NCBI GenBank assembly: GCA_013265495.1
Contig: MU057651.1
Coordinates: 806,001-870,000, forward strand
Direction: 5' to 3'
DNA length: 64,000 nucleotides
Source: Vicugna vicugna
Taxonomy: Eukaryota
Shown: positions 2,041 through 57,152 of the stretch, piece by piece
How positions within the stretch are numbered: position 1 is the first letter of the stretch
Layout of the letters: each line of letters starts with the position of its first letter
Program-made: the position numbers and the translations under genes
The notes under the pieces: generated by a model
Told to the model about the DNA's origin: nothing
What the model saw: the letters and a program-made list of their open reading frames with translations, nothing else
Database searches by the model: none

Positions 2041-2676
2041 GTCACTGTCCTTAACAGCACATTTTGAGACCCTGAAAAGCAATGCTTTATTAAAACCAGA
2101 AATTAAAATGTCAAAGAGAAGGTTTACCAGTTTTGTTCATTTTTCCTGATTTCTTCTCTCTTTGATTAAAGAAAAAAATGACCCTGCCAATTCACACCTT
2201 ATGGGTCAAGGAAAAAAACAAATTCACAACTAATACCTAGTGCTTCTGGTATGTCCTTTTTTTTCCAAACATACAGCTACATCCTAGCCCACCACTAACA
2301 CCACTGCGGTGGAGACATGAGGATCCACTAATTAAATGGGGGGTGACGTGGGGGGGGTTACTGTAGGGATCACTGTAAGAGCTTTGTATCCTCATTGGCT
2401 AAGAGAGGGAAACCTGCTAAAAAAGTTGGGCATCTTGAGGGGAATAATAATGATGTCCAGTAGGACTTGGTCAACCTGGCTAGAAATTCTATATCCAGAA
2501 TGTCTGAGCAACACCCCCAGCTGAGGGGATTTCCATCACTTTGAAACCATCCTTACCCTTCCAACGTGGGCAGAACAGGTTGGACCTGATCCGCCTGCGT
2601 GTTACTGCAATCTGGCTTGGCATGGGATGATACCCAAGGACATGTAATGCCAGGAGTGGCCCAGCCCCATGGCGCA

Positions 2677-2677
<1 letters not shown>

Positions 2678-2720
<43 letters not shown>
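2678..2720. repeat. (CA)n microsatellite
   Basis: Directly visible. Confidence 0.95.
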
Positions 2721-2723
<3 letters not shown>

Positions 2724-2765
2724 CACTCCAACTCACACTCACTGAATCCCACACAAAACCCTTAC

Positions 2766-3400
2766 CATCTCCCACATCTGCATTCCTGGGTGCCCAGCCA
2801 CACACGGGGAGTGCCCCCTCACAAGCCCTCACTTCTCTGGTTTGCTCGGCCCACACCCCCACTCTACCGGCAGACTGCAGCCGGTTTTGTTGTATGTAAC
2901 AAAGCCCCATGCACCCAGGTGCCCAGCTCGATCGACTCCATCCATCTCTCCCCGCCCCCATCCATCATCTCCCAGAACAAGAGAAAGCTCAGCTCTGGGA
3001 AGTGGATGCGGGGAGTGGGGGCGCAGAGAAAGGGAGCTTTAGGGGTGGGCGGGGGCAGGAGTCCGGGCGGCTTCAGAGCTCTCTCGCCATGAAGCGAGAG
3101 GGACGGCGAACAGGCAAAGGGACCGAGCTGCCTTCCCAGCCCATCGCACCCCATCTATTCACAGAAAAAGACCAAAAACTGAAAAATAATCTACCCTCCC
3201 GTCAGTCCCCTGCCCTCCCAGAGGCTCTTGGGGCCACTGGCGCTCCAGTAGCCCGCAACAAAGCGCCCCCGACACAGACCTGTTCCAGCCCCTTCGTGGC
3301 CGGAGCGGAGGGGAAGCCGCTGCTGGGTTCTGCCCTTCGCCGCCGGGCAGCAGGCGCCGGGGATGGGAGGAGCAGGAACTGGGAGAGGAAGGAGGACGAG
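2766..3400 (-). other. Candidate non-coding first exon of a minus-strand gene (possibly TRPC5); 5' boundary unknown
   Basis: Minus-strand donor ATG|GTAAGG (exon ends 2766, intron starts 2765) at the edge of the CpG island. Gene identity is inferred only from the remembered head-to-head TRPC5/RTL4 layout. Confidence 0.4.
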
Positions 3401-3597
3401 AGGGGATAGAGACGCAGCGACGGCGGCGGCGGCGGTAGGAGGAGGAGGAAGAGGAGGAAGAGGAGGAGGAGGAGGCGGTGGCGGCGGCTGCTTCTGTGGC
3501 AGCTGCGGAGGATGCTCTTGAGAGGGGCAGGGCTGGGTGCACGGGGCGTGGGCTCACGTGCGCCCCATGGCCCGGGGATGCGCGCGCGTCTGGGTGT
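3400..3597 (+). other. Candidate non-coding first exon of a plus-strand transcript (possibly RTL4/ZCCHC16)
   Basis: Donor TGT|GTAAGA at 3597/3598; alternative donor CTT|GTAAGC at 4100/4101. Identity is inference. Confidence 0.3.
3413..3490 (+). repeat. (GGC)n-(GGA/GAA)n-(GGC)n compound trinucleotide repeat in the CpG island
   Basis: cggcggcggcggcggtaggaggaggaggaagaggaggaagaggaggaggaggaggcggtggcggcggc. Confidence 0.9.
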
Positions 3598-4469
3598 GTA
3601 AGAGCATTTGGGTGTGTTTTGACTGATTATTCCAATTCCGACCTAGTCTGGAACTTGTGGTTCCTGCAGCCAGGCGGAAGTGATACCTTTTTAGTCTCCC
3701 AAGCTTGCCTGTACTGGCCAGGGGATGGGGGTTGAGGGTGAGGGAGGGAGATGGGGCAAAAGGGGCTCAGTACTAGGGCTCCAGGCCTGCCATTAATGTC
3801 CACACCCCTACCTTCAGTCTTCTTTCTGAGCACTGGTGAATTGCATTCACATGTATCTTTGGAAAGCCTATAGCAAAGGAGAATAGAAAGAAACCAAGAG
3901 ACCAAGGACAGTCACCATCACTATGACATTGTATTGAGTGAGCACTCACATGATGCTCAGTGCTGTCTGGACTATCCAGAAGGCAATTTCTGTTCTAACT
4001 TGAGATTTTCTTTCATGAATTGAGGTGTCCATAACTTCATATAGGATCTACTTTCCGCCTTTTCTCCTGTCTCTCATTTCACTGCAAAATCTCCGTGCTT
4101 GTAAGCAAGGTGGCTTTTTATTCTGCTTACCCAGCAAGTATTATCCAGATCCCTGGCTTCACTGGTGTAAAGGGGCCACTTAATCCTCATGCCACTCCCC
4201 CTCTAGGAGTGGGGTGCTTAATTTAGATGAGAACCAAGGCTGATTTCCTGGAAGTCAGAGCACTGAAGATCATCTTGGATCCAGCTGGAGACTCAGTTTG
4301 GATCTGCACGTCTGAAGTTAAGAAAAGAGGAAATCAATTGTGAGAGGCACAGTTCTTCCATTTGATTGAATCCTTAGTGAACCCCTTCCTGGGAGCCCTG
4401 CTGAAAGTCTCCTTCCTATTCGTGACTTTTTGAGTACCTCCCTCATCCTGCCTAATGGCTTATGCTTAT

Positions 4470-4670
4470 AGAGCACTTTGGAATTTACACAGCACTTCCT
4501 AATAATGAAATCCCTACCATATCATCTCTGTGAATTAGGCAAGGAAAATATCATTATTTGTATTTTACAGATGAGGAAATAGATTCAAGCAAGATTAAGT
4601 GGACTTGCCTAACATTATAGGCTAATAAATGGCAGATTCAGAATTGAGAGTCAGGTCTTCGGGTTCCTAA
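4470..4670 (-). mobile_element. MIR SINE
   Basis: Reverse MIR core ttttacagatgaggaaa...aagtggacttgcct. Confidence 0.75.
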
Positions 4671-6279
4671 GGCAAAATTCATTTTTAGTTGACACCTTGG
4701 AAAGAAATTTCAGACGCATCTATTGATCTCCACGTTGGAGAGTAACAGTTTAGTGCCTTCGCTAAATTGAAATTATTAACTAAAACGAGATTTTGAAAAC
4801 AGTACTTCAGTTAGGTCGATACATTCAGGTGCAACTCACAAATTAGTAGGCAGAAAAGAGTTAACAACTTTTCGACCTCAGCCCCAATCGGCAGACATAA
4901 CTATTCATTTGATTCTGCTACCAGCTACTATAAGAATACTTTGAAATGACGGTACAGAAAGGACAATAGAAAGAGAGTCTATTTGAATTTCCTGGGGCAA
5001 TAATCTTGGAAGTATTTCCCCCAAGAGCTAGATCTTTGTCCTCTAAGTCATGAGCATGAATCATTGTTTAACACCGGGGAGGAAAACTCTCCCACACAGC
5101 AGCCTAGACAGTCCCAAGAATGTGCAGATGGATATCAAGGAAAAGAGGCAGGCTAGTGCAGTGGGCAAAAACTCCACTCTGGAGCCAGACATCCCTAGTT
5201 GGAAAATCTTGATGAATGACTCAATATCAATGATCCACTTGTAAAATAGGTAGAGAAGTCTGAGAACGATATGCAGTGATACAAGTGCCTGAGACATAGC
5301 AAGGCTCCATAATGATAGGTATTCTTATTAGAGAGAAGAAAAGCAACAACTACCTGAATGGGTCTTTCTTCATTAGAAGCAGAAATCCTTTGTTACTAGT
5401 GGTACATTGAGAGAATGCAGAGGAAGAGATTGCTTTTCTCCAGGAAAGAAGAGACCAAATGCTGATGATAGGAGATAGATGTGATGAACAGTTAGAGAGG
5501 AGGGATTTTCTGCAACTACTGAGGACAAGCATGGAACTAAGAAGAGAACAGGATCAGAAGAGGATGATTAAGAAAGGGCATCTAGGATTGGGCAGGGGAT
5601 TGTGACCAGAGTCTTGCTATGCATGGTTATTGTGATAGATTGGGAGTATATGCCTGCTAACGGTTTTGTAAAAATGTACATGGTTCACTCAAAGGGGTGT
5701 TTGGGCTCTTCTAAACAAGTTCCTGCTTATCAAAAGACGTAATAAAAACTCCATTCAGAATCTTTCAGAAATACCTGAATCTGAATTAGTCCCTGAATTA
5801 GCCAGGGACTCCCTGTTCTGATTTGGTACCAAATAGAGATTATTCTTGTTTGAGCATTGCCAAGCACAGAGAGGTTGAGTCATAACAATGCTCAGAGCCA
5901 AGCTGCAGAAAAATTGTGAAGGAGGTGAAATCTGTCTCAGACACCCTTTCAGTCTCTCTGTGTTGCACATTTTTCTTCCCACTTAAAAATCTCTGGACAT
6001 CAAAATCCCTGCCTTTCCCAACCAGGACAAAGTGACCTGATTTAGTCATTTATACTGAAGTGCCTTTATATGTTTCTCCTCTCAAAAGGAAGACTAGCAG
6101 GAGGAAACAACGCTAAACCCAATGAAATGGATCATTAACGGTTGAAGTTCAGGCATTCTGGGTGGTAAATATCCCTTGGGTGCCCTCAAGTCATTTAGAG
6201 ATGAGATTCTCTATGGATAAGACCAGACCTTGGAAACTTACATTCACATTGTAACAGAAACGCAGCACAGTAAGAGGCA

Positions 6280-6425
6280 TTAGTTATTCTTTCCAGTCCA
6301 ACCCTTTTGTTTCACAAGTGATTAAACCAAGGTTCAGAAAGGTTAAGTGACTCTTCCAAGACCCCGCTTAGCTCCAAAGGAGAGCCAGGACTTGAATTCC
6401 AAGCACAGGGCTCTTTCCACTACAC
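6280..6425 (-). mobile_element. MIR SINE inside unit A gag
   Basis: aaccaaggttcagaaaggttaagtgactcttccaag MIR core. Confidence 0.7.
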
Positions 6426-6734
6426 TGTACTACTACTCCATCCTCTGGGAAGAAAACCAGGAACAATTGCTTAGAACTGATATTTGAGATTTTATTCCAG
6501 GAACATAGGGATGGCATGGAAATAAACATTGAGACCAAAAAATGAAAGTGCAGTCCTCTTTCTTGCTTCCTTTAGCTTTCTCCTCAAAAGTCATTTTTTT
6601 CCTAATAGCTATTTCAAATGAGACTGACATGTAGAATGAATGGTCTGTGTGATTCCAGGCACCTGAAACTGGAACTGATATTAGAGGTATAAGACTAGGC
6701 TGAGGGTGTACAGAGTCCAGGTCACTCCCAGAAT

Positions 6735-8940
6735 CTTTTTTTTTAATTGTGGCAAGGACATTCAACATGAGATCTATCCTTTTAACAAATGTGTAAGTGT
6801 ACAATACGATATCACGAACTATAGGCACAATGTTGCACAGCAGATCTCTGGAACTGAGTCATCTTGCATAACTGAAACTTTGTACCCTTTAAATAGCACC
6901 TCCTTATTTCCTCTCTGCCCAGTCCCTGGCAACCACCATGCTACTCCCTGGATATTGGCACCCACTGGGGTACTGGTAAGGATTGCATTTAATCTGTAGG
7001 CCACGTTGGGTTATCTGGACATTTTAACAATACGAAGTCTTTTTAATCTGTGAATACGAGATGTCCTTCCATTTATTTGTGTCTTTTTATATTTCTTTCA
7101 TCAATATTTTGTAGTTTTCAATGTACCAGTCTTTGACCTCTTTGGTTAAGTTTATTCCTGAGCATTTTATTAGTTTTGAGGTTGTAGAGGGTATTGTTTT
7201 CTTATATTCCTTTTTGAATAGTTCATTGTTAGTGTATAGAAATGCAAATGATTTGTGTATCTTGATTTTGTATCCTGCAGCTTCACTGAATTCATTTATT
7301 AGTTCTAACAGTTTTAGAGGGGAGTCTTTAGGGTTTTCTACATATAGGACCATGTCATCTGCAAAGAAATAATTTTACTGCTTCCTTTCCTATTTGGATG
7401 CCTTTTTTTGTCTAATTACTCTGGCTGGGACTGCCACTACTATGTCAAACAAAAGTGGCGACAGTGGGCATCCTTGCCATGTTCCTGATTTTAGAAGAAA
7501 AGCCTTCGGTTTTTCACCACTGAGTATGATATTAGCTATGGGCATTTTGTATATGGCCTTTATTATGTTGAGATGATTTCCTTCTTTTCCCCAGCTTTAT
7601 TAAGTTATAATCAAAAAACAAAATTGTATATATTTAAGGTATACAACGTGATGTCTTGATATATGCATACACTGTGAAATGACTACCACAATCAAGCTAA
7701 TTGATACATCCATCACCTCGTATAGTTATCTTTCCTTGTGTGTGTGGTGAGAATGCGTAAGATCTACTCTAGCAAATTTCAAGTATACAGTACAGTATTA
7801 TTTATAGTCACCATGCTGTACCATTAGATCCCCAGAACTTATTCATCCTGCAAAACTGAAACTTTGTACCCTCTGATCAAGGTAATTTCCTTCTATTCCT
7901 GGTGTGTTGAGAGGTTTTTATTATTATTATTATTATGAAAGGATGTTGAATTTTGTTAAATGCTTTTTCTTCATCTGTTGAGATGATTGGGTTATTTTAT
8001 CTTTCATTCTGTTATTGTGGTGCCTCACATGAATTGACTGTTATATATTGAACCATCCTTGTATCTCAGGAATAAATCCCTGTGATCCTTTTAATGTGCT
8101 ATTGATTCTGATTTGCTAGTATTTTGTTGAGGATTTTTGCATGTATGTTCGTCAGGGATATTGGCCTGTCATCTTCTTTTCTTGTGGTTTCTTTGTCTGG
8201 CTTTGATATAAGGGTAATGCTGGCCTCATAAAGTGAATTTGGAAATGTTTCCTCCTCTTCAATTTTGGGAAGAGTTTGAGAAGAATTGGCATTAATTCTC
8301 CTTTAAATGTTTCATAGAATTCACCTGTAAAGCCATCTGGTCCTGGGCTTTTCTTTGTTGGGAGATTTTCAGTTACTGATTGAATCTCCTTACTAGTTAG
8401 AAGTCTATTCAGATTTTCTATCTTTTCATAATTCAGCCTTGGTGGGTTATATATTTCTAGAAATTTATCCATTTCTTCTAGGTTATTCAATTCATTGGTG
8501 TATAATTGGTTTCAGTAGTCTCTTATGATATTTTTTATGTGGCATTGTTAGTCTCTTCTTTCATTTCTAATTTTATTTGGGTTTTCTCTTTTTTTTTGTT
8601 AGTCTAGCTAAAAGTTTATCAATTTTGTCTATCTTTTAAAAAACTCTTAGTTTCATTGATTTTTTTTCCTATTGTGTTTCTATTCTTTATTTTGTATATT
8701 TCTGTCCTGACCTTTATTATTTCCTTCTTTCTGTTAACTTCTGGCTAAGTTTGTCTTATTTTTTTGGTTCCTTGAGGTGTAAAGTTAAGTTGCTTGAGTT
8801 CTTTTTTAATGTGGGCACTATTGCTAAAACTTCCCTTTTAATACTGCTTTTGTTGCATCCCATAAGTTTTGGTATGTTGTGTTTTCCTTTTCATTTGTCT
8901 CAAGATATTTTCTAATTTCTCATTGATTTCTTCTTTGGTC
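6735..8940 (-). mobile_element. L1 fragments (3' end, ORF2 portion, nested L1 3' end ~7595-7880)
   Basis: Minus ORFs 7087-7353 (MVLYVENPKDS..KLLELINEFS) and 8152-8490 (LEEMDKFLE..KSPGPDGFTGEFY) are L1 ORF2; poly-T at start. Confidence 0.92.
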
Positions 8941-9799
8941 CCTTGGCTGCTTAGGAGTCATTCCATGAATCTTGCATTTTTAGAATAAATCCTTGTTATG
9001 AACATATTATAATGAGCCTCTACTCAAAACAGGGTACCAGGAAAGTTTTTAGTTAGTGAAAGTTTCCAGTTTGTTGGGGTCCTGTTAATTAAGGTTTTAC
9101 TATAATCTCAAAACACAGAAAGGATTTAAAACAATCTGACCTTTAAAAAAATAGAACATAAAACTCACCACTATTTAGTCTTGCTTTCCTCTGTTTTATT
9201 GCCATGTTTCCTATCTACGCTGTTGACGGTTACTTGGGATTAAAAAGTTGTCACAAGATTTATTAACTAGTTTCTCTACTCCTATATGTGTTTGAAATTT
9301 TCTACAATACAAGCATTAAAAAAAAAAAAGACATGATCTCGGTCCTCTAAAAACTGGAACTCAGCATTGGATTGATCTTGGACATCAATTAGTGCTATAT
9401 ACAGATTAATCAGTCTAACTTTTCTGGAGGACAAGGTGGCAATTTATATCAAAATTTTTTAAAAGTCAGTGTGACAAAAAAAAAGTTTCCCGAGACAATC
9501 TCCTAAATTCCATAATTGGAAAAATAGTCAGAAGGCCTGGTTTCTCTTCCCGATTAGATGACTTATTTCTATGGACAAGTTCTTTGTTTCAGGACCCAAT
9601 TTCTTGATCTACAAAATTGATAACAATTTTTTAAATACATGTTTCCTTGCAAAATTGGGAAAGATAGAAAGCTTTGGGAAGAGTGCCACATAATCCATGC
9701 TTTTCAGATATTGATGCTGGAGGCAAAATATAGTGAGTGTGGATAATGTATATGGCCCTTTGAAAGTTACATTATAAAGGAAATGGAAAAGTATTAATT

Positions 9800-12030: not shown

Positions 12031-12714
12031 AAACTTTCTGCCTTGAACTTGGACTAACCTGAGCCAATCTGTCCTTACACAATTTAAACTAACACTTCTA
12101 GTATTGAGGCAGATTGATCCTAATACAAGAAAATCACAGCCCAAGTACTTCTAACTATATGCCTGTCTCTTACAGAAAATGGCCCTAGTTGCCATTAACT
12201 ACTTGGTGTAGGAAGAGGAAATGCTGGCAATTAGAGCTGCCTTTGAGGCATGGTTTCTCTGCACCTATAATGATACAGTACAACCTGTGCATTATGATGC
12301 CACTGAAGCAAAATTTGATGCTCAATTTTGCCAGATGAAATGGCATTGTTCTAGAAAAGACAGACTTTTCATAGCCGCTCTGTCCCATTGAGTAGATATC
12401 CAGTCATGTAAGTCTGGGTGCAGCCAAGACTTCACCCTAAGAGAACCTCTGATCTGAGAGTTTTACTGTCATTATTGTCAGTTGCACCTAATTGAGGCAA
12501 GTGAAACAGACAACAGACAGATATCGTTATGCAGGAGCACTGGTGATGGACCGGTTAATGCAAAGCGGACAGAGGGGTCTGTACTAACTATTTGCTGGTA
12601 ATATGTCCTGGTACGAGCACTGACTCTGTCACGGTGCCCTATTCAAAACCTTGAATGCAAGGACTTATGATGTCCCTTTATCTGCCATCAGCACTTGAAG
12701 AATTTACACTCTGA

Positions 12715-13215
12715 TCCATTGACAGATGATTGGATAAAGAAGTTGTGTTATACATATGTAATTGAATACTATTCAGCCATAAAAAAAGAATGAAATAATG
12801 CCATTTGCAGCAACATGGATGGACCCAGAGATTATCATACTAAGTGAAGTAAGCCAGAAAGAGAAAGAAAAATAACATATGATATCACTTCTAGTGGAAT
12901 CTAAAAAAAAAAAAAAGAGGAGACAAATGAACTTATTCACCAAACAGACTCACAGACAAACTTATGGTTATTAAGGGAGGAAAGTGGGTGAGGGGTGATA
13001 AATTGGGAGTTCAGGATTTGTAGATACTAACTACTATATGTAAAATAAACATCAAGGTCCTACTGTATAGTACAGGAAAATATATTTAATATCTTACAAT
13101 AACTTACATGGAAAAAGAATATGAGAAGGAATATATATGTATAATTGAATCACTATGCTATATACCAGAAACTACCACAACATTGTTAATTGACTATACT
13201 TCGATTTAAAAAAAA
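12715..13215 (+). mobile_element. L1 3' end (relatively young)
   Basis: ataatgccatttgcagcaacatggatggacccagagattatcatactaagtgaagtaagccaga; A-tail. Confidence 0.9.
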
Positions 13216-13389
13216 GGAATAGATCTGAAAAGACCAACAGACTAATATACTCATTACCAACTCTCAAACACATCCTTGATACCATTGCTGTGGGTTTGAT
13301 TAAAATCCTACTTTCTCTTTCATGATCATAATACTATCTTAGTTGTAGTGTAGTGTAGACATCTTTACCAAAAGGCCATCACAATTGGC

Positions 13390-13555
13390 AGTGTTGCATA
13401 ATGATTAGGGGAACGGGCTTTGGAGCCAGAGAGCAGTTTGAATCTCTGCTTTCTCCTTTGTTAGCTATGATTTTGGATGAGCCACTTAACCTTCCTAAGT
13501 CTAGTTTCCTCACCTGTAAGATGCAGATAATAACAGTCCTCACCTCACAGAATTA
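13390..13555 (+). mobile_element. MIR SINE inside unit A integrase
   Basis: ggctttggagccaga...ccacttaaccttcctaagtctagtttcctcacctgtaagatg. Confidence 0.8.
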
Positions 13556-13654
13556 TGTACAATATGTGTAACACATTCTTATGTGTTTAATTTTTACACA
13601 AATAATACATGAATATATTCTCATTGGAAAAAAAATTAAAATACATAGCAGATG

Positions 13655-14125
13655 TACAAAAATTTGTATGTGCATATTTGTAGTAACTTTATTCATGATA
13701 GCTAAAAAGTGAAAACAACAATACCAACTGATAAATGGATAAATAAAATGTGGTATAGCCACACAATGGAATACTATTCAGCAATAAAAAGAAGTGATAT
13801 ACTAATACATGGATGAACCTTGAAAATATTATGCTATCTTGTATAATCCTATTTTTATGAAATGTTCTGAATAGTCAAAGTCATTGAGACAGAAAGTAAA
13901 TTGGTGGTTGCCTAGGGCTGGGCATGGGAGCAGGGTTGAGTTGGGAAATGGGAAGTGATTGCTAATAGGTAAAGAGTTTCTTTTTGAGGTAATGGTAATG
14001 TTCTAAAATTGACTGTGGTGATGGTTGCACAACTCTGTGGATATACTGAAAACGACTAAATCACACACTTAAATGTGTGAAGTTTATTTTATGTGAACTA
14101 TATCTCCATAAACCTGTTATAAAAA
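13655..14125 (+). mobile_element. L1M 3' end
   Basis: acaatggaatactattcagcaataaaaag...gatggttgcacaactctgtg. Confidence 0.85.
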
Positions 14126-14199
14126 TATGTAGCAGATAAAGACCCCCTTCACAATCATCTGTGTCCTCCTTCCCCTTCTTTTCATAGGAAGTCTGGAAT

Positions 14200-16540
14200 G
14201 TATCACTCTAGATCATTTAAATAAGTGTTCATACCTATGTGTACATATACAAATATATGGTTTTATTTTGTTTTAGTATAACATTGTGCATTTGTTCTGT
14301 AACTTGCTTTCTTCATGTACCAATGGAGTTCAATTCTTTTTGTGTCAGGACACATAGCTCTACCTCATTCATTTTACATGCTATATTCAGTGTAATGTAG
14401 TTGATGGATGAATCATAGTTTATTCACCATTCTTCTATTGCTGGACACTTAGATTGTGTCTAATTTTTTGCTATCATAAACAGCATTTCAGTAACATCTG
14501 TGTACATGCTTATTTGTATACATGAAAAGAAAGTGTCTAGAAAAATATAGTACTTCTAAAGGACATGTTATATTGAAGAATGAAGTACATTTAATTTTTT
14601 TTTATTCTAACAAACTGGCCTCCAAATGGGCTATATCAAACTACATACCAACAAACAGCTTATACATATAAATTTCTCCTCACCCATTGTCTATTTTTTG
14701 AGTTGTTTTGTTTTGTATATTGAGATTTGATAGTTCTTTGTATATTCTGGATGCAAGTCACTTCTCAGATATGTGATTTACAAAGATATTTTTTCTCATT
14801 CTCTTAGGAATGTTTTTTGAAAAGCAGAAGCCTCAACTTTTGTAGAAGATTAATTTTTCAATTTATTCTATTATGGATCATGTCTTTGTTGTTGTATCCA
14901 AAAACTCCTTCCCTAACCCAGGGTCACAAAGATTTTTCTCCTATGTTTTCTTTTATTAACCTTATAGATTTAGATTTTACATTTAGATTTGTTATCCACT
15001 TTTAATTTTTGTATATGGTTTGAAGTTCATGTTTTACATGTGAATATCCAATTATTTCAGCACCATTTGTTGCAAAGACTATCCCTTCCCTATTGCACTG
15101 CCTTTGCACTCTTGTAAAAAAAAATCGGCTATCCATAGTGTATGTGTAGGTCTATATTTGACTCTCCATTCTGTTTATTTCTTCAATTTTCCTTTATGCC
15201 AATACCACACCATTTTTTTTACTGTACCTTAGTAATAAGTCCTATAATCATTTAGGGTTAGCCCTCTAATATTTTTCTTTTTTAAAGTTATTTTGGCTAT
15301 ACCAGGTCCTTTGGATTTCTATATGAATTTTATAATCAGCTTGTCAATTTCTATTTTTAAAAAAGCTTCCTGGAATTTTGATTGGAATTGCCTTTAATAT
15401 ATAAATCAATCTAGGAAAACTTGATATCTCAACAATATTGAGAATTCATCAATGGAGAAGGTATATTTCTCCATTTAATTAAGTCATCTTTAATTTTGCT
15501 CCACAGCTATTTGTAGTTTTAAGTGTACAGTTCTTTCATATCTTCTAGCAGATTTATCTCTTTTTCATATTTTTGTCCTACTATAAATATATCTTCTGAA
15601 TTTACAATTACTGATTGATTTACTTGATTTCTGCCTCTTGATTCTCTGGCAACATTGATAAACTCATTTAGTTCTAATAGCTTTTTTATAGATTTAATCA
15701 AATTTTCTAAATAGATAATCACATCATCTGTAAATAAAGACAGCTTAATTACTCTCACTGTCCAATATGGATACCCTTTATATCTTTTTCTTGCCAAATT
15801 GCACTATCCAGAAGCTCCAGTACATTGTTGAATAGAAGTGGTGAAAGCAGACATCCTTGCCTTGTTTTTGATCTAATGGGAATAACATTCAGTCTTTCAC
15901 CATTATATACGATGTCATATACAAGTATTTCTCAGATGCAGTTATCAGGTTGAGGAATTTCACTTCCATTCCTAGTTTTACTGAGAGTTTTTTTTTTAAT
16001 CAGGATTGGATGTTGGGTTTCATCAAGTGCTTTTTCTTCATCTATTGAGATAATCATGTGGTTTTTCTTCTTTAGTTTGTTAATACAGTGAATTACATTT
16101 AAACCAACCCTGCATTCATGGAATAAGTCTCACTTGGCAATGATGTTTATACTTCTAATATACAGTTGGATTTGATTTGTAAACTTTTTTAAAAGACATT
16201 TTTCCATCTATACTCATGAGGAATAGTGGTTGGTAGTTTTCCTTTTTTGCAGTGTCTTTTTCTGGTTTTGGTATCAGGGTAATTCTGGCCTCATAGAATA
16301 AGTTGGGAAATAACCCTTCCTCTTCAATTTTCTTGAAGAAAATTTGTAGTTGATTTAGTATTGTTTCTTCTTGAAATATTTGGTAGAAGTGAAGTCATCT
16401 GGGCCTGGAGATATATTTATGGGGCTGATTTTAACTACAATTCAATTTCTTTAATAGATCTATGGCTATTCAGGTTATTTCTTTTTCTCTCAAAGCTCTG
16501 TCAGCTTTGATAGTTTGTGTCTTTCAAGAAGTTTATTCAG
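14200..16540 (-). mobile_element. Degenerate L1 (3' region and ORF2)
   Basis: Minus ORF 15519-15797 (IKLSLFTDDVIIYLEN..KKLLELNEF) is L1 RT; T-rich. Confidence 0.88.
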
Positions 16541-16590
16541 GAGGAGGGTATAGTGAGGAGTTTCAGTGGTAGAGTGTATGCTTAGCAGCC
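16540..16590 (+). mobile_element. Truncated camelid tRNA-derived SINE
   Basis: ggaggagggtatag...tcagtggtagagtgtatgcttagc matches the head of the 47052 copy. Confidence 0.6.
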
Positions 16591-17091
16591 AGGGTTCTCT
16601 TAAGTTAGACAGGCATCGATTTTTGGTTTTTATGATATTGGTTTGGATGGTGTAGGGCTATCTATGCCTAGGAGGCCAGAGATGAAAAGTGGCTCCAGCT
16701 GCTAGAAAACTAGGACCATAATGAGAACCAGGTAAACCCTTTTCTCTCTTGCAAAGGTTAATCTGAAAGTCAGTGAGTGTGGTAAAATGGGGTGGAAGAC
16801 AGCAATGATATTCTACAAACTTCAGATATCAATAGACCACTTTGATTGACCTGGGAGTCCCAATCTGGCATGACTGGCACTTTGTCAGGCACTATGTAGA
16901 CAACTTGGGTGGCCAATCCTTTGCTCAAAAAAGCTATTTTTGAGCTTTTCAAGGTCTTCCCAGAGATGGGGCTACTTCAGATGGCTCAGAACTGCCCTGA
17001 CTTGGGGTTCTTTCAAGGTCAGCTCACGGGGGTACATTAGGATATCCTCCAGGTAGGTAAAAAACCCTCTGTCAATGAGGGTGTATAATAT

Positions 17092-17750: not shown

Positions 17751-18989
17751 ATAGACACAACGTGTCAGGCCTTACACGGGCCCAGAAGCTGAACAGAACA
17801 TTCAGACTGGTCAAGGTTCCTGGAGAAAGTCGGCCTCTACTCCTTGCTCTGTCTGTTCAAGTTGTAGACCTCTCCAAGGTCAGCCCAGTGCTCTGAGAGG
17901 TCGGCGATCAGAGGAGTAAGTGTACTACAGCTGCCGGAATCATGGCAGAGAGGCAGCATCCTGTTGTTCTTTTCCACAAGGAGCGGCAGAGATTTTGTGG
18001 GGGTTGAGAAGCTTGGGGAACCCCTCCCGCAGACTGGCTGCTGCAGACATTCAGAAGACCCAGGTGTTGGATTCTAAGGGGACGTGTTGGGCAGACAAAT
18101 GAGCCCTGAGTACCAGGATGATCTCCGATCACATTCACGAGAAGGCCATGGTTAATCTTCCTCTGTGTTCTCAAACACCCCTGGGCCCAGGTGTTCAGGT
18201 GACAGATGGGTTAGGCCCCAGAGTATACAAATAACCCTGGAAGCAGGATACAGAGGTAAAGTGAAGACTATGAATTTTCAGAGTGAAAGGGCATGAAATA
18301 TGGTTTTTCCAGCCAGCAGAAGCCAAGGACCAAAGGTAGTTCTTTCTGAGAAGCTGAATTAGCAGAGTCGAAACCTCTGACTTAAGAAATTTGAGGCTCT
18401 CTAGGCCCACTCTAGTTATTGGGGATAACCTGGTATAGCCAAGTCCAGAGCTTTAAGGAATGGCCCTGGTGCTCTTAGGGTGAAAAAAAGACTTTGGGTT
18501 TTCATGAGTTTAAAGGATTTAAATATTGCTGAGTCAGAGAGACACAACTTCAGGCCCCAAAGGCTACACCAGCAGATCTCAGGAGCTCATTCAATGCCCC
18601 AAACACAACCTGCATGGCCTTTTTCTGTCCTCACCTCCAAACCAGCAGTCTTCAGTATGCCTTGTAGCAACAGTCATGCTCCCTCCAATAGGAAGAGCTC
18701 TGTATGCCCGGTGTCACTATTACCACGGACTTGAACTCTGACCTACTTTCCTCTTAGGATCCCAACACAACAATAATAATAAACAACACAAATACTTGAT
18801 AAAGCACTTAATATGTCCCATGCACGGTTTTAAGCAATATGTGTGTATGTGTGTGTGTGTGTGTGTCTTCCAACATCATCTCACAAAACTGGGTCATTGC
18901 TTCTCTGTCTCAAGGGCCTACCTGGATCAGGCACCAGTACTCCTCATCCTGGGATCTTCTGTCTTCACAGGCTACCTTGAGGACAGGAA

Positions 18990-31942: not shown

Positions 31943-32619
31943 TCTTATTACTGTTATTGACAGAACTGATAGGCACTGCCTGTGGAGGGGACAGGCAACT
32001 GTGGAGACCTTCCATTAAGCTGTGAATGAGAGAACGTGCCCAGGGGCTGGTACACCCTTCCCCTGGGCCCTCAGGTTTTTGTGGCTAGAGATCCTCAGAG
32101 TGGTTACCTCCTTCAAAATTCAGGTTTTTCAATTTATAACAAAACAGTATAGCTACCCAGTGCCTCGTGTGCCCCCTCAGCCCTGGATCACACAAAACAC
32201 TGTCCATCCTGGGGAGGTTGGGGGCACCAAGTAGAAAAACTGTCCTTACACCGAAGGCACAGTTCAAATATTCCGTGTTAGACCCCAAGGATGAGATACC
32301 AACCTGCTGCAGGGATTTATCTGCTTTCCTTAACGAGACCCTGGCTTGCGTTCTAACTTGGAAAAATGAAGAGTTCTACACTTACCTGAATGCAGGTGAC
32401 ATGAACTTGACATGAACACCACTACCTGCTTATGCTGATTTCCAGTCTCCGGGACCAGCTCTGTGAGGCATCATTATGAAACGGGACCTCTAGAGGCCTA
32501 CAGTAGTGTTCGTTTCCTGGGGGGTGACAAATAGAAGTTGCACCTCAGCCAAGGCATATTTAGCGCAATATGATTTGGCCTAACCAACATCCTGAACATC
32601 TTTTAGCACCTAGTGGAAC

Positions 32620-33967: not shown

Positions 33968-34170
33968 GAGGTTGAATTCTTGAAGCAAATCCTGTCTGGC
34001 CTAGATACCTACCAGGTATAATAACTCTTGAGCAAGCATGTCTATAAATGCCTGGAGTTCACCAAATACTGCTGAGTATTTATTCACCACTTCTCGGTTC
34101 TGACCTGGCTAATGGGGGGACCTCTTATCTAAGAGGAATGGATCCTCTACTCTATGATCATAACCATGTT

Positions 34171-34555
34171 TGTTGCCAGCGATCAGATTGTCTCGTCACA
34201 GAAAGAATTCAGAGACGAGACGTGGAGGTTAAAGTAAAGTGAGGATATATTAAGGGATAGATAGTATGCTCTCAAGGGGAGAGCAGGCAGGCTCAGGTGA
34301 GCAGCTGCCCTGAGTTTCTTTGGCAAGTTGGTTACATAGTGTGTAAAAATGAATGAGTGGAATATTTATTGGGAAGGGAAGGGTTTGGGGTCTTATTCCC
34401 TGATTTTCATCCCAATTCCACCTTCCTGAGGGGAGGGGGGATTTTTGGCCTTATTTAGTCTGGATTAGAAGTGTCATGGCGTCAGTGCATGATGGGTACT
34501 TCTAATCTGCAAGGCTAATTTTATTGAAATGAGGGCACAACGAGCAGGGGGTATT
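34171..34555. mobile_element. LTR fragment inside unit D
   Basis: Starts tgttgccagcg; LTR-like composition; interrupts the RT-to-IN colinearity. Confidence 0.6.
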
Positions 34556-35019
34556 GTGGTTGTCAAGACCCAGCCACAACTAGCACAGGTGGCTCAGCAG
34601 GGGCTGCAAAGGGTTGACTGTGTAGAAAAGCACCTCCTTGAGTTTCAGGATCACTCATAGTTGGCCTTAGGAAGTGAGGAGCATCCACTTCCTGACATTA
34701 TTTCATATATCCAGTTGTTTGTGGCTTATTCCGAACCTAAATATAGGGCCTTCAGGAAACCCTGCAACTGATATGACACGCTCAGAATACCATGGACTCT
34801 GACACCTGTATCCAGGTCAAAGATAGGTCCAAGCAACTCAAAGACTAGTTTCTTCCACTCCTGACACCAAAATGCTCCTGGGACACCATCACAATCAAGT
34901 TCCTTCTTAATCTGGACCTTTCTATAGCTACAAAGCCATCCTTGTGATGGCAGTGGGTATCCTAGCAAAAAATGTTATATATTATATCCTGACTCTGACT
35001 CCCATCCATAGCAGCCATT

Positions 35020-35210
35020 CATTCTTCTGAAGGATGAAAAGAAGCAAGCCATACAAGGGACATGCAAGCAGAGGGAAGAGCAAGTGCAAAGGCCCAATGG
35101 CAGGAGAGGGACTAGGTTTCAGGAACAGAAAGAAGAGGCTGTAGTATGGTGAGTGAGTGGGAGACTGGCACGAAATGAAGATGTAAAGGTAGGCAGAGGC
35201 CACCACCACC
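35020..35210 (-). mobile_element. L2 fragment inside unit D integrase core
   Basis: gcagagggaagagcaagtgcaaaggccc...tttcaggaacagaaagaagagg. Confidence 0.8.
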
Positions 35211-36444
35211 TTGTTTATCTTACAAGATCCTTTGCCTCTGTGGACTTCCCAGCCATCTGGCCCAGCTTCATCCATCTGTGTACCATCCACCTACAGACAG
35301 ACTCAAAGAGTTTAATCAGTCCAGTGCTAGAAGAATTTCTCTGCTGCTATTCCGCCTACAAGCCACATGACTGATCCACCTACTTCACCGTGGCAGAAGT
35401 TGCCTGTAACGTCTCACTGTGTTCCTGGTTTGGAAACACCTCTATTCTAGCAACTAGAGTCTTATCCTTCACTACTTTTTTCACTTCTAGCATCAGGGAC
35501 ATCCTTATAGGCAGTTTGTACCCTGGGGGAGCTGTACGATGCCTAGAAATCCCCTTAGGGCATCTGTTGGTAGGCCAAAGACCAGTACAAAAGATAGACT
35601 TACTGGGACTGGGCATGGGGTGGGAGAAGATTGATGGGAAACTTGATATGGAAAACAATGTCTGGGTTGCCTCTAGTCATGTATTCACCATGCAAGCTTA
35701 AGGATTACTGCTTGTAACCTTTTAAGAATATCTATTATCAACCCTATAGCTCTCTGACACCAGCATCTTTCTGACTCCATGCCCTTTGGTGAGCATCAAA
35801 GCTTTCTAGACATGTTCCTGCTACACCAGACCTATGAAGAGCTCATCTTCCATTTTGCACTCGGTGGCCTTCCCAGATAACCTAGGATGAAAAATAATAA
35901 TGCATCACAGAGAGAGAAGGTATAGGGCTCATGTTGATAGCATGGCTAGAACTATACCTGGCCTGATGGGAGAGTAACAACCAGTCTTAGGATTCAACCA
36001 TGCACCTCTTGTCAGCAACAGGCCAGAACTCATAAGGCAAGTGCAAGAAAATCCTGGTATCCATCCTTTGTCAGAAGAAATTTGGAAGAAAATAGTGTCC
36101 ATTCTGTTGTTATCTATTTTAATGCTTCCAGAAGAACCACGATGGTGGTCATGGGACCTGATGAAAACCCACGGAAATCATCTGCATTCTGGCATGGTCA
36201 TTACTCCAGGCCTCCTTCCCACCCGCCTTTCTGTGTACACAATCTAATCTCCGTTGATTTCCATCTCCCTCAAATTCATACCTTGACTGCTCCTCTTGGT
36301 TTACACGCATGTGGATTAGAAACTTGATTTTGGACTGTCTTTATGACTCTGACCTGGAATTCCCTTAGGACAATTCTTCCAGTAACTTCTCCTGGACTCC
36401 ACTCAGTGCAATAATCATAATGAGGAAGAATAAAATGGGGAGGA

Positions 36445-38549: not shown

Positions 38550-40490
38550 TATTATTTTTATTTTTTATTACAGTAAAATGTACACACAACAAAATTTACC
38601 ATATTAACCACTTGAAAGTGTATAAATCAGTGGCACTAAATACACTCATAATGTCGTGAAATTATCACCACTGTCTAGTTCCAGAACATTTTCATCACCC
38701 CAAACAGTAACTCCGTACACATAAAGCAGTCACTCCCCATCCTCCTTTCCCTCAGCTCATGGCTAGCACTAATCTGTTTTCGGTTTATATGGATTTGCCT
38801 ATTTTGGATAGTTCATATAAATGGAATCGCATCATATGTGGTCTTCTGTGACTGGCTTCTTTCACTTAAGATAATGTTTTCAAGGCTCATCCATGTAGCA
38901 TGGATCAGTACTTCATTTATTTTTAAAGCTAAATAATGTTCCATTGTATGTATATACCACAACTTTATTCATCTGTTGATGGACATTGAATTGTTTCCAC
39001 CTTTCGGGTATTTTGGCTATTGCAAATAGTGTTACTATGACCATTTGCATACAAGTGGTACAAGTATTTGTTGGAATTCCTGTTTTCAAATCTTTTAAAA
39101 AATGTTTTCTAAATTTTTTTTAGGGGATGGACCTCATGCATGCTAAACAGACACTCTACCACTGAGCTATATCCTCCCCTCCCTGTTTTCAGTTCTGTTG
39201 GGAGTGGAATTACTAGGTCACATGATAATTCTATGTTTAATTTATTAAGGAACTATCAAACTGTCTTCCACAGCAGCTGCACCTTTTTACACTCCCATCA
39301 GCAATAAATAAGGGTGTCAATTTTTCCACATCTTCACCACCACTTCTTGTTTTCTATTTTTCTGATTATAGCCACCTAGTGGGTGTAAAGTGGTATCTCA
39401 CTGTATTTTTGATTTGCAGTTCCCTAATAACTAATGCTATTTTGCAACTTGTCATGTGTTTGTTGGCCATTTATTTATCTTCTCTGGAGAAATGTCTATT
39501 CAAATCCTTTGCCCATCTTTTTATTGTAATTGGATTGCTTCTCTCTTTTTTTCTTATGCATTATAAGAGTTCTTTATATATTCTAGATAAAGACTCTTAA
39601 CAGAAATATGACTTACAAATATTTTTTCTCATTCTGTAGGTGTCTTTTCACTCTGCTGTTAGTGCCCCTTGTACACAAAAGTTTTTACTTTTGTTGAAGT
39701 CCAGTTTACCTATTTTTCTTTCATTGTGCTTTTGGTATCATATCTAAGAAAGCATTGCCAAATCCAATGACGTAAACATTTATCCCTATGTTTTCTTCTA
39801 AGAGTTTTAGAGTTTTAGCTCTTATGTTTGGGTCTCTGATCCATTTTGAGTTAATGCTTGTATACAGTATAAGATAAAGACCTACTTCATTGTTTTGCAT
39901 GTGGACATCCAGTTGTCCCAGCAACATTTGTTGAGACTGTTCTTTCCCATTGAATGATTGTGACACCTATATCCAAAAAGCAATTGACCATAGATGTATG
40001 AGTTAGTTTCTAGACTCTCTGTTCTGTTCCATTGATCTATATGTCTATCCTTATGCCAGTACCACAATGGTTTGATTATTATAGCTTTGTAACAATTTTG
40101 AAATCAAGAAGTGTGAGTCCTCCAACTTTTTCAAGATTTTTTGGCTTTTTGGGACCCCTTAGAATTCCATATAAATGGAGAATAAACTTTTCCATTTCTG
40201 CAAAAGGACTGTTGGGATTTTGATAGGAATTGTATTGAATCTGTATATCACTTTGGGGGAGTATTGTCACCTTCCAATCCATGAACACATGACATCTTTC
40301 CATTTATTTAGGTCTTTAATTTCTTTCAGCAATGTTTTATAGTTTTCACTGTACAAACCTTGCTCTTATTTGGTTAAATTTATTCCTTAGTATTTTAGTT
40401 TTTCTGATGTTACTGTAAATGGAATTGTGTTTTTAATTTCCTTTTCAGACTGTTCAATGCTAGTATACAGAAATTCAATGATCTCTTGAA
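38550..40490 (-). mobile_element. L1MB-like 3' region/ORF2 with nested camelid SINE fragment (~39110-39182)
   Basis: Minus ORF WYWHKDRHIDQWNR is L1 ORF2. Confidence 0.92.
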
Positions 40491-41239
40491 GAAAAATATT
40501 TCAAAGCTCTGCTTCTTCCAGGACTACCTTGATTCTAATATTGTCACCTACAATCTCATCTTTGTTTGGAAATTGACAATGGAAAATAGCCTATAAGAAT
40601 GTCCCAAGTAGTCTGAATACACTACCATGCCCTTTGATCTTTGTAATACCCAGTCATTGTCCATCAACAAATAATCAGTATTCTACACAACCACTTGGAC
40701 AGAAGGTTATTGTCTAGTTAGAAGACATTCTCAACCATCCCTCCCTTTGGACCAACCATGAGATGTTCGTATTTAAAAGACGTGAAGTCTAAATCCTGAG
40801 CCAAGATTTATTCAGCTATGATGTCAGGGGTCAAATGACATGTGTCAGCCTTGCTGGAATTGCACTCACCTGAGACCATCTAGACATTCCTTGGGATTTC
40901 TGGGGTATTAGCAAAGATTCAATCTTTACTTCTACACCATGACTGTCTATATAACCAGACTCATCAAACAAGGGAGGAGTTTATCTGTATCATGACCTTT
41001 TGTATCCACCCTTATTATCTTGTCCCCTTTTACCATCACCTGATCCTAAACAGACAAAAGCCTTTCACATTGCAGTGAGAGCCATCCTGTCTGAAAAGGA
41101 CTTAGTGACATCCATCCCTACACTTATTTTTTTGGGAAGCTTCTTCTGGAGTTAGAGCTGTTTGATCACCAAGGTCACCTGATGTTGGTGTGCTCTCAGA
41201 CCACTGCAGCCTGGAGCATAAGAGATGGAGGCATACCAT

Positions 41240-42284: not shown

Positions 42285-42510
42285 ACAGGATTTCTCAGTT
42301 GAGGTGCTATTGATATTTGGGCCAGAAAATCCTTTGTTGTGGAAGGTTGTTGTGTGCATTGTGGGATGTATACCAGCACCCCTAGCATCTACCCACTAGA
42401 TGCCAATAGCACCTCCACCTCCACCCCATTTATGACAACTAAAAATACCTTCAGACATTCCCAAATGTGCCCCAGGGGGGCAAGTTCACCCCTGGTTGAG
42501 AACCACTGTA
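42285..42510. mobile_element. MER20-like hAT transposon
   Basis: caggatttctc...ctacccactagatgccaatagcacc...cctggttgagaaccactg. Confidence 0.85.
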
Positions 42511-43379
42511 TTAGAGGAATACCTCTTCTGCCATACCACCTAACAAAACACAACTTCCCTCAATGCAACAGAGATGCACTTAAATCACTGCAGCCCATCT
42601 CTGAAAACACCCTCTTTCATAGCAACCATAGTTTCCACTGCTACTATCCCACACTCACGGGAGTCAGACGATCCCTGTAGAAACTAAGGGCTGCTCTGAA
42701 AGACCCTCCACCTTGTCAAACATTGGTAGAAGGAGGATGCCAACTAGAACCAAATCACAAGGAAGGCCATTTGAATGGACCATACCCTTGGGTCCTCTTC
42801 CAGCCACTACTCTCTACTCATCTGTTCTAGAATCTAGAGGGTTACGATTTGGGACTGAGGTGACAAAGGTTGTCAAGTCCAAGCTCTTCCAGCTCAAGCC
42901 AACCTTATGCATATCCAGCCAGTCTTGCCTTCCCGCTAGCACGCCAGCAAGAGGTCAACAATCTGAGTTGAGAAATGTGAGTTTATTAAGCAAATGATGC
43001 TGGGTTCAAGAAAAGCTCTAGGAATTGGCACCCAGAAAGTGGTAAAGTCCCCAGAAACAATCAAAGAACCCAAATGGCTCTCCTGGAATTGTGCAGTACA
43101 CAGCATGCCTTTACAGTTTGCAGAGATGCATTCTAATCCCTGGATCCTCCCAGACACTTTAGAACCTTCTACCAGGCAAATTCTGAGGGAACGATGGCTC
43201 ATTCCACCTGCAGCAGAAGCCCGCAAAGAATGAGTGAGGTTCTTTACACATCAGTCCCTTTAACTGCTCCCAGCATGCCTGTGCCAAAGGCCCCGACAAG
43301 TGTCTGAATGCAAGCCAATTCTTCTGGGTTTTATCCTGCCTTTTACCAGCTTCAAAGCTCACATAATGGCCTCCCTTGG

Positions 43380-47051: not shown

Positions 47052-47210
47052 TGGGGGAGGGTGGAGCTCAGTGGTAGAGCGTGTGCTTAGCATGCACGAG
47101 ATCCTGAGCTCAATCCCCAGTACCTCCATTAAAAAAATAATAAAATAAATAAATCTAACTACCTACCCTCCCCCAAAATAAAAAAAATAAGGCTACAAAA
47201 TAAATTTAAA
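47052..47210 (+). mobile_element. Camelid tRNA-derived SINE (Vic-1-like)
   Basis: gggggagggtggagctcagtggtagagcgtgtgcttagcatgcacgagatcctgagctcaatccccagtacctcc plus A-rich tail; A and B boxes visible. Confidence 0.9.
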
Positions 47211-51990: not shown

Positions 51991-53699
51991 ATTGTAGGAG
52001 CCAGAGGCCCGGAGGGTACCCAGCACCAAAGGATCCCACGTGTAAAACAGTCTATCTAATAGTCACTATTCCCAAGTTGCTCGTTGTCCGGGCCCAGTTA
52101 GGACCCTCAGAGGGCTGAAAGCCCTGAAAAGACTATGGTGTCCCCTTCATACGTAGTTCAAAACAAAAGCAAAACTAAACTGTAAATGATTCTACTGCAA
52201 GTCCAAGGACTGATTGTGAAATTCCGGCTAAGGCCTTTGAAGTTGAACATCTCCTGTGCCCTGGGTTTAGTCTACCTATTAGGAAGCCCAGCATGGCCTG
52301 CTGGTAAAGGGGTAACTAAGCCAAATCCTGCTCTGGACCCCAACTGAGCCCTAGCACCCCTCCCTCCAGTCACAGTGTGTCGGCCACCAGCAAATTCTAG
52401 GACATCTGGTAACTACTTCCAGATTTCTAAGAGATTAAGGGGCTTTGGAAAACTCTGTGGACCCTGCCCAGCCAATTTACATGGCTTAAGCCAGCTCCAG
52501 CTGGGGTGAAACCCTCACTGTGATTCAGAAAAAGAATAACCACTGAAGTACACGTAGGAGTCCACACCTGGCATTGTGCAAATGTTCTGGCCAGACATAA
52601 GGTCACTTGCAAACCTTACATCTCAGCTTCAACCCGCTTCTTGGTCCCTGGCCTCTCCAAACGATGAAGCCAAATTTCTATCATCCTCAGGGTTACTGTA
52701 GCCTGTACATCTCAGAATTTTGCTTGCATTTGCCTCTATGAACATTCCAGCATGAATTGCTGCCAAGCTTCATCAGACCCTCTACCTCCCCAGCAGGGGC
52801 TCAGTACTCTTTGTAGAAGGAAAAATCAAGAACTCTAGCTCTGCTAGGACTCTGTAGTGTCAGTTCTGTGATGATATGAAACCCTTCCTAATTTGGATAA
52901 TTCCCAGCTTCCTTGACAAACCCCCAGGGAACCTAAGGCAGTGTAGAGTTAGACTTCCAGGGCATTACACCCCTAATCAAATCCAGGAGGGTGACCAAAA
53001 ACCTCCACTATTTCAGAATGATTCCAGACAATTCCTGTATCTGATAATGACCGGCAGCTTGTACCACACCTCAGCTTTTCAAACAACTGAAGAACCAGGA
53101 TCCCACCAGACTCTCTGTTTTCAGACTCTCTGGCTTCATTGTTACTGCTTCTCTACACCATCAAGTCCTTGATTCAGCTGCCCTGGACCTGCTACAGCAA
53201 TGCTTACACTGGTACATGAATATTTTACAAATGGAGAGTTCCTTGACCTCTTTCTACCTGCCCAGGGCGTCTGCTTGGAGTCTGGTAAGAAAGAAATCCA
53301 CTAATTTGGAGAAGGAGCCCTCTGAACCGGGCAATTCCTGCCTTCCACCGGGTACTCTTTCAGCTTTCTCTGCTTGCTGTTGTCCTGATCCCTCCAAGTA
53401 CCAGGAAGCAATTTAGTTGGGGCCAGAGCCTACACTGGAGAGGGCTAGAGCCTTCTATCACACAAAGCTGGAAAAGGCTACCTTTAGGAAGGCTGGGCTT
53501 GGGAAGAGGGTAGCAGGGGTGTACTCTAGCCCTTTGCAACCTGGAGCCTTCAAGCCAGCTGGCGGCTCCTGCCCCATGCGGGCCACTGCCACCCATCAGC
53601 AACACCATTCTGGGTCCACCCTTTGTTTACAGCCTAGGTACAATCTACCTCCTTACAGCTCTGTGCTCAACCCTATGTTTTTAAAATGTTAAGTATTCT

Positions 53700-57134: not shown

Positions 57135-57152
57135 TACCACTAGATGGCAGCG
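57135..57152 (+). promoter_or_regulatory. CTCF consensus site
   Basis: TACCACTAGATGGCAGCG. Confidence 0.6.

What the first reader, a model, noticed from the sequence alone, without database searches (positions are those of the whole stretch)
2760..4110. Bidirectional CpG promoter, possibly TRPC5/RTL4, directly upstream of the array and in the same sense
Seen: CpG island with a minus-strand donor at 2766 and plus-strand donors at 3597 and 4100; the array starts within ~2 kb and runs in the + sense. Known (from memory): human TRPC5 and RTL4 (ZCCHC16/SIRH11) lie head-to-head on Xq23, and RTL4 is a sushi-derived gag gene with distant non-coding 5' exons. Inference: the array may sit in the 5' intron of RTL4, and the RTL4 ORF could be the surviving member of a local tandem amplification that came under this promoter.
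Basis: inference. Interest (0 to 1): 0.7.

Follow-up and report, generated by a model that had tools for sequence, protein, structure and literature searches.

The report
CpG promoter beside dead gypsy retrotransposons
This is an ordinary mammalian gene promoter whose gene could not be named, and 8 to 50 kb away lies an unusual cluster of at least four very old, broken Ty3/gypsy retrotransposon copies that may, but is not shown to, be the source of a gene such as RTL4.

Summary
The CpG island is real but smaller than stated (2917-3746, CpG o/e 0.63 against 0.20 for the window). The three GTAAG donors exist, but three are no more than chance gives (2.07 expected), and only the minus-strand one at 2766 is strong. 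Mouse CAGE data confirm that Trpc5 and Zcchc16/Rtl4 start head-to-head about 600 bp apart. That this island is their orthologue is unproven: three published promoter guides match it only at chance level without gaps (about 30% odds). No gag array starts within 2 kb. What lies downstream is a cluster of decayed sushi-type (chromovirus) pol relics: four reverse transcriptases, one RNase H and integrase pieces, from 12.0 to 53.2 kb. One copy is on the minus strand, and all are full of stops and split by old repeats. No gag was detected, but the test had little power. Best reading: an ordinary promoter next to a dead cluster that it does not serve. The claim that RTL4 is the cluster's survivor could not be tested (about 10%). 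The cluster deserves the follow-up more than the island does.

The parts
2917..3746 (.). CpG island, TATA-less promoter type
   Evidence: GC 0.63, CpG o/e 0.63. GC boxes at 2957, 3047, 3065; E-box 3555; NRF1-like 3579; CCAAT 3632; ETS 3674; no TATA (motif patterns recalled).
2760..2768 (-). Strong splice donor, last exon base 2766; likely end of a minus-strand first exon
   Evidence: Top 31 of 6701 GT sites. Use in RNA not shown.
3595..3603 (+). Weak candidate donor, last exon base 3597
   Evidence: 784 of 6701 GT sites score as well.
4098..4106 (+). Middling candidate donor outside the island, last exon base 4100
   Evidence: 365 of 6701 GT sites score as well.
12037..12253 (+). Decayed Ty3/gypsy RNase H relic (profile positions 806-878)
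   Evidence: 40.0 bits against reversed-sequence maximum 25.7; 6.5 bits hmmsearch against control 3.6.
16669..17091 (-). Copy A, RT C-terminal half (663-809)
   Evidence: 55.4 bits; tblastn hits from 18 loci, best E 1e-4; phmmer hit to an amphibian RT, P0004.
17768..18181 (-). Copy A, RT N-terminal half (495-652), separated from the C half by a 670-bp insert
   Evidence: 44.5 bits.
32206..32615 (+). Copy B, RT N-terminal half (517-660)
   Evidence: 39.0 bits; 58% DNA identity to copy D.
34034..35763 (+). Copy B continued in order: RT C part 34034-34153, integrase zinc domain 34789-34976, integrase core 35272-35763
   Evidence: 23.4, 29.1 and 46.2 bits; 0 of 40 shuffles reach each.
35947..36153 (+). 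Possible second integrase zinc-domain piece (weak)
   Evidence: 20.3 bits; 1 of 40 shuffles reaches it.
40546..41232 (+). Copy C, RT to start of RNase H (617-884)
   Evidence: 47.8 bits; 59% DNA identity to copy A.
42508..42750 (+). Probable integrase piece of copy C, beyond an L1-type insert
   Evidence: 62% DNA identity to 35324-35609, score 3952 against null maximum 2418. The protein profile alone does not find it (12 of 40 shuffles reach it).
52745..53200 (+). Copy D, RT (543-699), best preserved
   Evidence: 63.1 bits.

Best explanation
Two neighbouring but functionally separate things. (1) A TATA-less CpG-island promoter. It probably starts a minus-strand transcript with a non-coding first exon spliced at 2766, and may also fire on + (inferred). 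Its gene is unnamed; TRPC5/RTL4 is a minority candidate (about 0.3). (2) From 12 to 53 kb, a cluster of at least four copies of a sushi-type chromovirus retrotransposon that once carried RT, RNase H and integrase (shown). It most likely arose by local head-to-tail duplication of one insertion plus a later inversion (inferred). It died very early: each piece has 2 or more stops in every frame and is split by old dispersed repeats (shown). Any + transcript from the island would cross the cluster as intron. The promoter does not make a product from it.
For: Island and motifs. Seven relic pieces at 39-63 bits against a control maximum of 25.7, with copy B colinear from RT to integrase. Stops in all frames and dispersed repeats inside the relics. 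Copies only 51-62% alike. No Pfam family above its cut-off in 445 of 474 stop-free frames of 45 aa or more outside L1. Gap of 7.9 kb and one minus-strand copy. The vertebrate chromovirus profile scores 7 of 8 pieces higher than the metagenome-derived profile.
Against: No RNA was laid, so strand, start sites and splicing are unshown. Gag detection has low power at this decay (0-3 of 12 distant and 2 of 4 near simulated gags found), so gag units may exist unseen. Pfam also missed the real RT and RNase H pieces. One human TRPC5 guide has a gapped match on the expected strand just upstream of the 2766 donor (5-8 sites in the window score as well), which keeps the RTL4 link open. Local duplication is inferred from density and orientation, not from shared breakpoints.
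Confidence: 0.6

Rival explanations
1. The island is the shared TRPC5/RTL4 promoter, the cluster lies in the long 5' intron of RTL4, and the RTL4 ORF is the gag of one member of the same local amplification that came under this promoter through new non-coding exons.
For: Mouse CAGE: Trpc5 (-) 144,688,319-350 and Zcchc16 (+) 144,688,945-959. Sirh11 has 7 exons with the ORF in the last and at least three first exons (PMC4581854, passages). Real sushi-type relics, mostly on +. One gapped guide match at the expected place. No exon-like coding frame in the 60 kb downstream.
Against: Three guides give 0 matches at up to 3 mismatches and best ungapped 12, 11 and 12 of 19, equal to or below the shuffle median. 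Two further human guide stretches gave no clear match by eye. The relics are pol, while RTL4 is gag only. The human ORF exon is 372 kb from the promoter. No gag was found.
Confidence: 0.1
2. The island is the TRPC5/RTL4 promoter, but the relics are bystanders in the intron and RTL4 came separately, for example as a retrocopy of PEG10 ORF1.
For: Same layout evidence as above. Retrotransposition from PEG10 is offered as a possible origin in PMC10604271 (passages).
Against: Chance-level ungapped guide matches. A rare relic cluster inside an RTL gene by coincidence would itself be unlikely (inference).
Confidence: 0.2
3. The cluster is a set of independent insertions at a favoured or well-preserved site, not a local duplication.
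For: One copy is on the minus strand; pairwise identity is only 51-62%; no shared flanks were found among 506 pairwise comparisons of 23 stretches.
Against: Three of four RT copies and all significant integrase pieces share the + orientation. Gypsy traces are rare in mammals (PMC5753468 and PMC3670739, passages). The minus RT ends at profile position 809 and the plus RNase H starts at 806, which fits one copy split by an inversion.
Confidence: 0.25
4. The island drives one gene only (either strand) and the donors on the other strand are chance sites.
For: Three GTAAG against 2.07 expected; both + donors are weak or middling.
Against: GC skew is negative at 2500-3000 and positive at 3300-3900, as two divergent starts would give (interpretation from general knowledge). 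An ETS site lies at 3674.
Confidence: 0.35

Closest known systems
Mouse Trpc5 / Zcchc16 (Sirh11, Rtl4) head-to-head promoter
   Same: Divergent layout is possible here: a strong minus-strand donor at one edge of a CpG island and a long exon-poor stretch on +. The mouse starts are about 600 bp apart (PMC5094855 supplement 2, rows seen).
   Different: Sequence orthology is not shown; guide matches are at chance level without gaps.
Vertebrate chromovirus (sushi-type) Ty3/gypsy retrotransposons of fish and amphibians (P0004-P0123)
   Same: RT, RNase H and integrase similarity, in the order RT then integrase in copy B.
   Different: All frames broken; gag, protease, chromodomain and LTR pairs not detected.
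Ancient mammalian Gypsy repeats in Repbase (MamGyp-int, X1_LR to X4_LR)
   Same: Rare, decayed Gypsy internal sequence in placental genomes (PMC5753468, passages).
   Different: Here at least four RT copies sit within 41 kb. Family assignment could not be tested without the repeat library.
RTL/SIRH/MART domesticated genes (PEG10, RTL1, RTL4 and others)
   Same: Same retrotransposon lineage by description; promoter capture through 5' UTR introns is their known route (PMC3670739, passages; its Table 1 appears to place ZCCHC16 under CpG island/proto-promoter, not bidirectional).
   Different: They keep an intact gag-like frame. The relics here have no intact frame and include integrase, which I recall no RTL gene keeping (recalled).

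Membership tests
CpG-island promoter | 200 bp or more, GC 0.5 or more, CpG o/e 0.6 or more | tested here: met
   830 bp, 0.63, 0.63. Some 500-bp windows pass the stricter 0.55/0.65 rule; their union has o/e 0.60.
Bidirectional promoter | Stable transcripts on both strands starting within 1 kb | not tested
   No reads were laid. Only skew and motifs are available.
TRPC5/RTL4 orthologous promoter | Sequence similarity to the human or mouse promoter | tested here: inconclusive
   3 of the published guides tested by tool: no match at up to 3 mismatches, chance-level ungapped, one gapped match at the expected place. The others were compared by eye only.
TRPC5/RTL4 orthologous promoter | Splicing to TRPC5 exon 2, or synteny with TRPC5 and LHFPL1 | not testable with these tools
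   No genome is held for this window; no coding exon lies in the window.
Ty3/gypsy chromovirus (sushi-type) retrotransposon | RT and RNase H of the Ty3/gypsy type, followed by integrase | tested here: met
Ty3/gypsy chromovirus (sushi-type) retrotransposon | Closer to chromoviruses than to other gypsy clades | tested here: inconclusive
   The only RT among the 4 hits in 1.84 billion proteins is an amphibian element whose relatives carry chromodomains. No non-chromovirus profile was run.
Ty3/gypsy chromovirus (sushi-type) retrotransposon | Gag, protease, chromodomain, paired LTRs | tested here: inconclusive
   Gag and protease not above shuffles, with low power. LTR pairs were not searched for specifically; none shows in the self-comparisons.
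RTL/SIRH domesticated gene | Intact gag-like reading frame | tested here: not met
   No gag family in 445 of 474 stop-free frames. The longest frame outside L1 (209 aa, 50579-51208) does not match the gag alignment (probability 0.3).
RTL/SIRH domesticated gene | RTL4 gag nests among the local units in a tree | not testable with these tools
   No RTL4 sequence could be fetched and no gag unit was detected.

The most novel reading that the evidence does not exclude
The cluster is the fossil of the full autonomous retrotransposon, with RT, RNase H and integrase, that fathered the eutherian RTL/SIRH genes. It amplified locally behind the TRPC5 promoter, and its distal gag became RTL4. This would favour birth in place from element remains over retrotransposition of PEG10 cDNA.
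Probability: 0.1. Interest if true: 0.75.

Novelty: new member of a known kind. Interest (0 to 1): 0.35.

Why it matters
The island alone is ordinary. The cluster matters because the origin of the eutherian RTL/SIRH genes is still open: separate captures from one extinct element, or retrocopies of PEG10 or RTL1 (PMC10604271, passages; PMC3670739, passages). Four pol-bearing copies of a sushi-type element in 41 kb would give sequence from the parental lineage whatever the locus is. If the locus is RTL4, the question becomes directly testable with a tree. Searches showed no description of such a cluster, but the library lacks most subscription papers and the repeat libraries were not available.

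Tried and rejected
Own-genome search: no genome held. Pfam on 445 of 474 stop-free frames: 14 weak hits, all below their cut-offs, none gag; the 29 frames not sent were 5 microsatellite frames and 24 minus-strand frames beyond 55.3 kb. Pfam on 19 frames read through with X: no hit, although these frames include real RT and RNase H, so the negative is weak. PDB search with the RNase H piece: 2 chance hits. Word-index homolog searches with the RT piece and with the 65-codon frame ending at the 2766 donor: nothing. Three of the four phmmer hits are repetitive proteins and were dropped. A 26.1-bit hit at 40013-40635 overlaps an L1 and copy C and was dropped. A first DP run scored the CpG island itself through composition bias and was replaced. 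My by-eye gag-like readings at about 5.8, 32.3 and 50.9 kb failed; 32.3 kb is RT. A 59% match between 5614-6264 and 9208-9793 is near the null and AT-rich; rejected as a unit pair. A possible minus-strand integrase piece at 50388-50882 is borderline (1 of 40 shuffles) and is not counted. The mouse Trpc5 guide has its best gapped match at 54405, in the second CpG-rich spot, but by eye the other guides are not colinear there; treated as chance. Rfam gave one tRNA-like SINE head and no miRNA or snoRNA landmark. Supplements with a human TRPC5 promoter could not be read (PMC12766986; PMC8743255) and would have borne directly on the locus name; the readable supplements of PMC11754104 held no TRPC5 or RTL4 row.

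Full report
Setting. The window is mammalian non-coding DNA (GC 0.41, CpG o/e 0.20), rich in L1-type and SINE-type repeats. A tRNA-derived SINE head at 47057-47128 resembles camelid SINEs (recalled). No genome is held. No Pfam family passes its cut-off in 445 of 474 stop-free frames of 45 aa or more outside L1.

The island. It spans 2917-3746 (GC 0.63, 51 CpG, o/e 0.63), about 0.5 kb shorter than the stated span, whose overall o/e is 0.51. It has GC boxes, an E-box at 3555, an NRF1-like site at 3579 and an ETS site at 3674, and no TATA box. GC skew is negative at 2500-3000 and positive at 3300-3900. This is the usual anatomy of a CpG-island promoter and is compatible with divergent starts (inference). 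Only 2766 is strong (31 of 6701 GT sites score as well; 784 for 3597 and 365 for 4100). No RNA was laid, so strand and splicing remain unshown.

Is it TRPC5/RTL4? The recalled layout is right. The TSS table of PMC5094855 (supplement 2, five rows seen) gives mouse CAGE starts for Trpc5 on minus at 144,688,319-350 and Zcchc16 on plus at 144,688,945-959. In human it gives TRPC5 at 111,325,207-229 and ZCCHC16 only at its ORF exon, 372 kb away. PMC4581854 (passages) places Sirh11 between Trpc5 and Lhfpl1, with 7 exons and the ORF in the last. To test orthology I used promoter guides from PMC9829409 (supplement rows). Three were run by tool, one human and two mouse. None matches the window at up to 3 mismatches. 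Their best ungapped matches in the island are 12, 11 and 12 of 19, with a shuffle median of 12; for a true orthologue at 80% identity, 12 or fewer has probability 0.07, and at 70% it has 0.33. With gaps, the human guide matches the minus strand ending at 2830, about 65 bases before the 2766 donor. That is where TRPC5 exon 1 would put it if my recalled exon length is right, and 5-8 sites in the window score as well. The remaining guides, compared by eye only, give partial matches under two mutually inconsistent offsets, and the human upstream stretch gives none. The evidence is mixed; I put the identity at about 0.3.

What lies downstream. A short-motif scan suggested an RT on minus near 17.0 kb and an RNase H on plus near 12.2 kb. 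Chromovirus-type elements from 120 metagenome loci (Pfam domains checked on 5 frames) confirmed the RT piece (18 loci, best E 1e-4). A phmmer search of 1.84 billion proteins gave 4 hits, three repetitive artefacts and one amphibian RT, which led to 120 related proteins, mainly from fish and amphibians where named. A frameshift-aware codon profile built from 61 of them scored seven pieces at 39-63 bits against a reversed-sequence maximum of 25.7: RNase H at 12037-12253 (+); copy A RT at 18181-17768 and 17091-16669 (-); copy B RT at 32206-32615 and its continuation 34034-35757 (+); copy C at 40546-41232 (+); copy D at 52745-53200 (+). Copy B runs in order through RT, integrase zinc domain and integrase core, each beating all 40 shuffles. 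DNA comparison adds a probable integrase piece at 42508-42750. So there are at least four RT copies in 41 kb, three on plus and one on minus, and the nearest relic is 7.9 kb from the end of the finding.

Gag was not found with three profiles, nor in targeted tests of seven stretches, including 4110-6740 and those upstream of each RT. This negative is weak. At the decay level that reproduces the observed RT scores, simulated gags were recovered in 0-3 of 12 distant and 2 of 4 near cases.

Age and history. Each piece has at least 2 stops in every frame, and four of five interrupting stretches tested match dispersed repeats elsewhere in the window; by recalled features these include MIR- and L2-type elements, whose activity ended around the placental radiation. 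Copies are 51-62% alike. The cluster was thus dead very early (inference). The minus RT stops at profile position 809 and the plus RNase H starts at 806, and oppositely oriented L1 pieces flank the block between them (60% alike over 664 columns). This fits one copy split by an inversion of about 12.0-16.6 kb (inference). Gypsy traces are rare in mammals (PMC5753468 and PMC3670739, passages), so this density points to local duplication, though independent insertion is not excluded.

How it most likely works. The island acts as a normal promoter for a neighbouring gene. The relics are passive sequence that a plus-strand transcript, if there is one, would splice out. Nothing in the window links the two functionally. 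The survivor model needs three unshown steps: that the locus is RTL4, that the cluster reaches toward an ORF some 300 kb further on, and that RTL4 gag is related to local gag relics.

Papers seen: passages of PMC4581854, PMC10516033, PMC3670739, PMC4340606, PMC12766986, PMC8743255, PMC4917564, PMC5753468, PMC6212738 and PMC10604271; supplement rows of PMC5094855, PMC9829409 and PMC6303322; an empty supplement search of PMC11754104. None was read whole.

Verdict. The promoter is an ordinary member of a known kind. The relic cluster is a real and unusual member of a known kind of fossil. Interest 0.35; 0.75 if the RTL4 link (about 0.1) proves true.

Noticed in passing
window 54268-54836: Second CpG-rich spot (GC 0.56, o/e 0.51) with an NRF1 palindrome at 54409 and CCAAT boxes; it may be an alternative first exon or enhancer. 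The mouse Trpc5 guide has its best gapped match here.
   Followed up: partly
window 51976 and 57137: Two consensus CTCF-type motifs on + flank copy D and the second CpG-rich spot (motif recalled).
   Followed up: no
window 12037-16668: Probable ancient inversion that split one retrotransposon copy at the RT/RNase H junction, flanked by oppositely oriented L1 pieces.
   Followed up: partly
window 50579-51208 (+): Longest stop-free frame in the window (209 aa). It lies about where the gag of copy D would be expected but shows no gag similarity.
   Followed up: partly
window 50388-50882 (-): Borderline integrase-like score on the minus strand (1 of 40 shuffles); possibly a further inverted relic.
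   Followed up: partly
window 57000-57400: CpG-retaining non-repeat stretch (o/e 0.64) around a CTCF-type motif; possible conserved regulatory element.
   Followed up: no
window 5886-6087 and 48189-48432: Inverted 61% match over 196 columns between two otherwise unique stretches; unexplained, perhaps an old repeat.
   Followed up: no
window 2677-2720 and 3420-3487: (CA)n tract just inside the putative minus-strand first intron, and GGC/GGA triplet runs inside the island.
   Followed up: no
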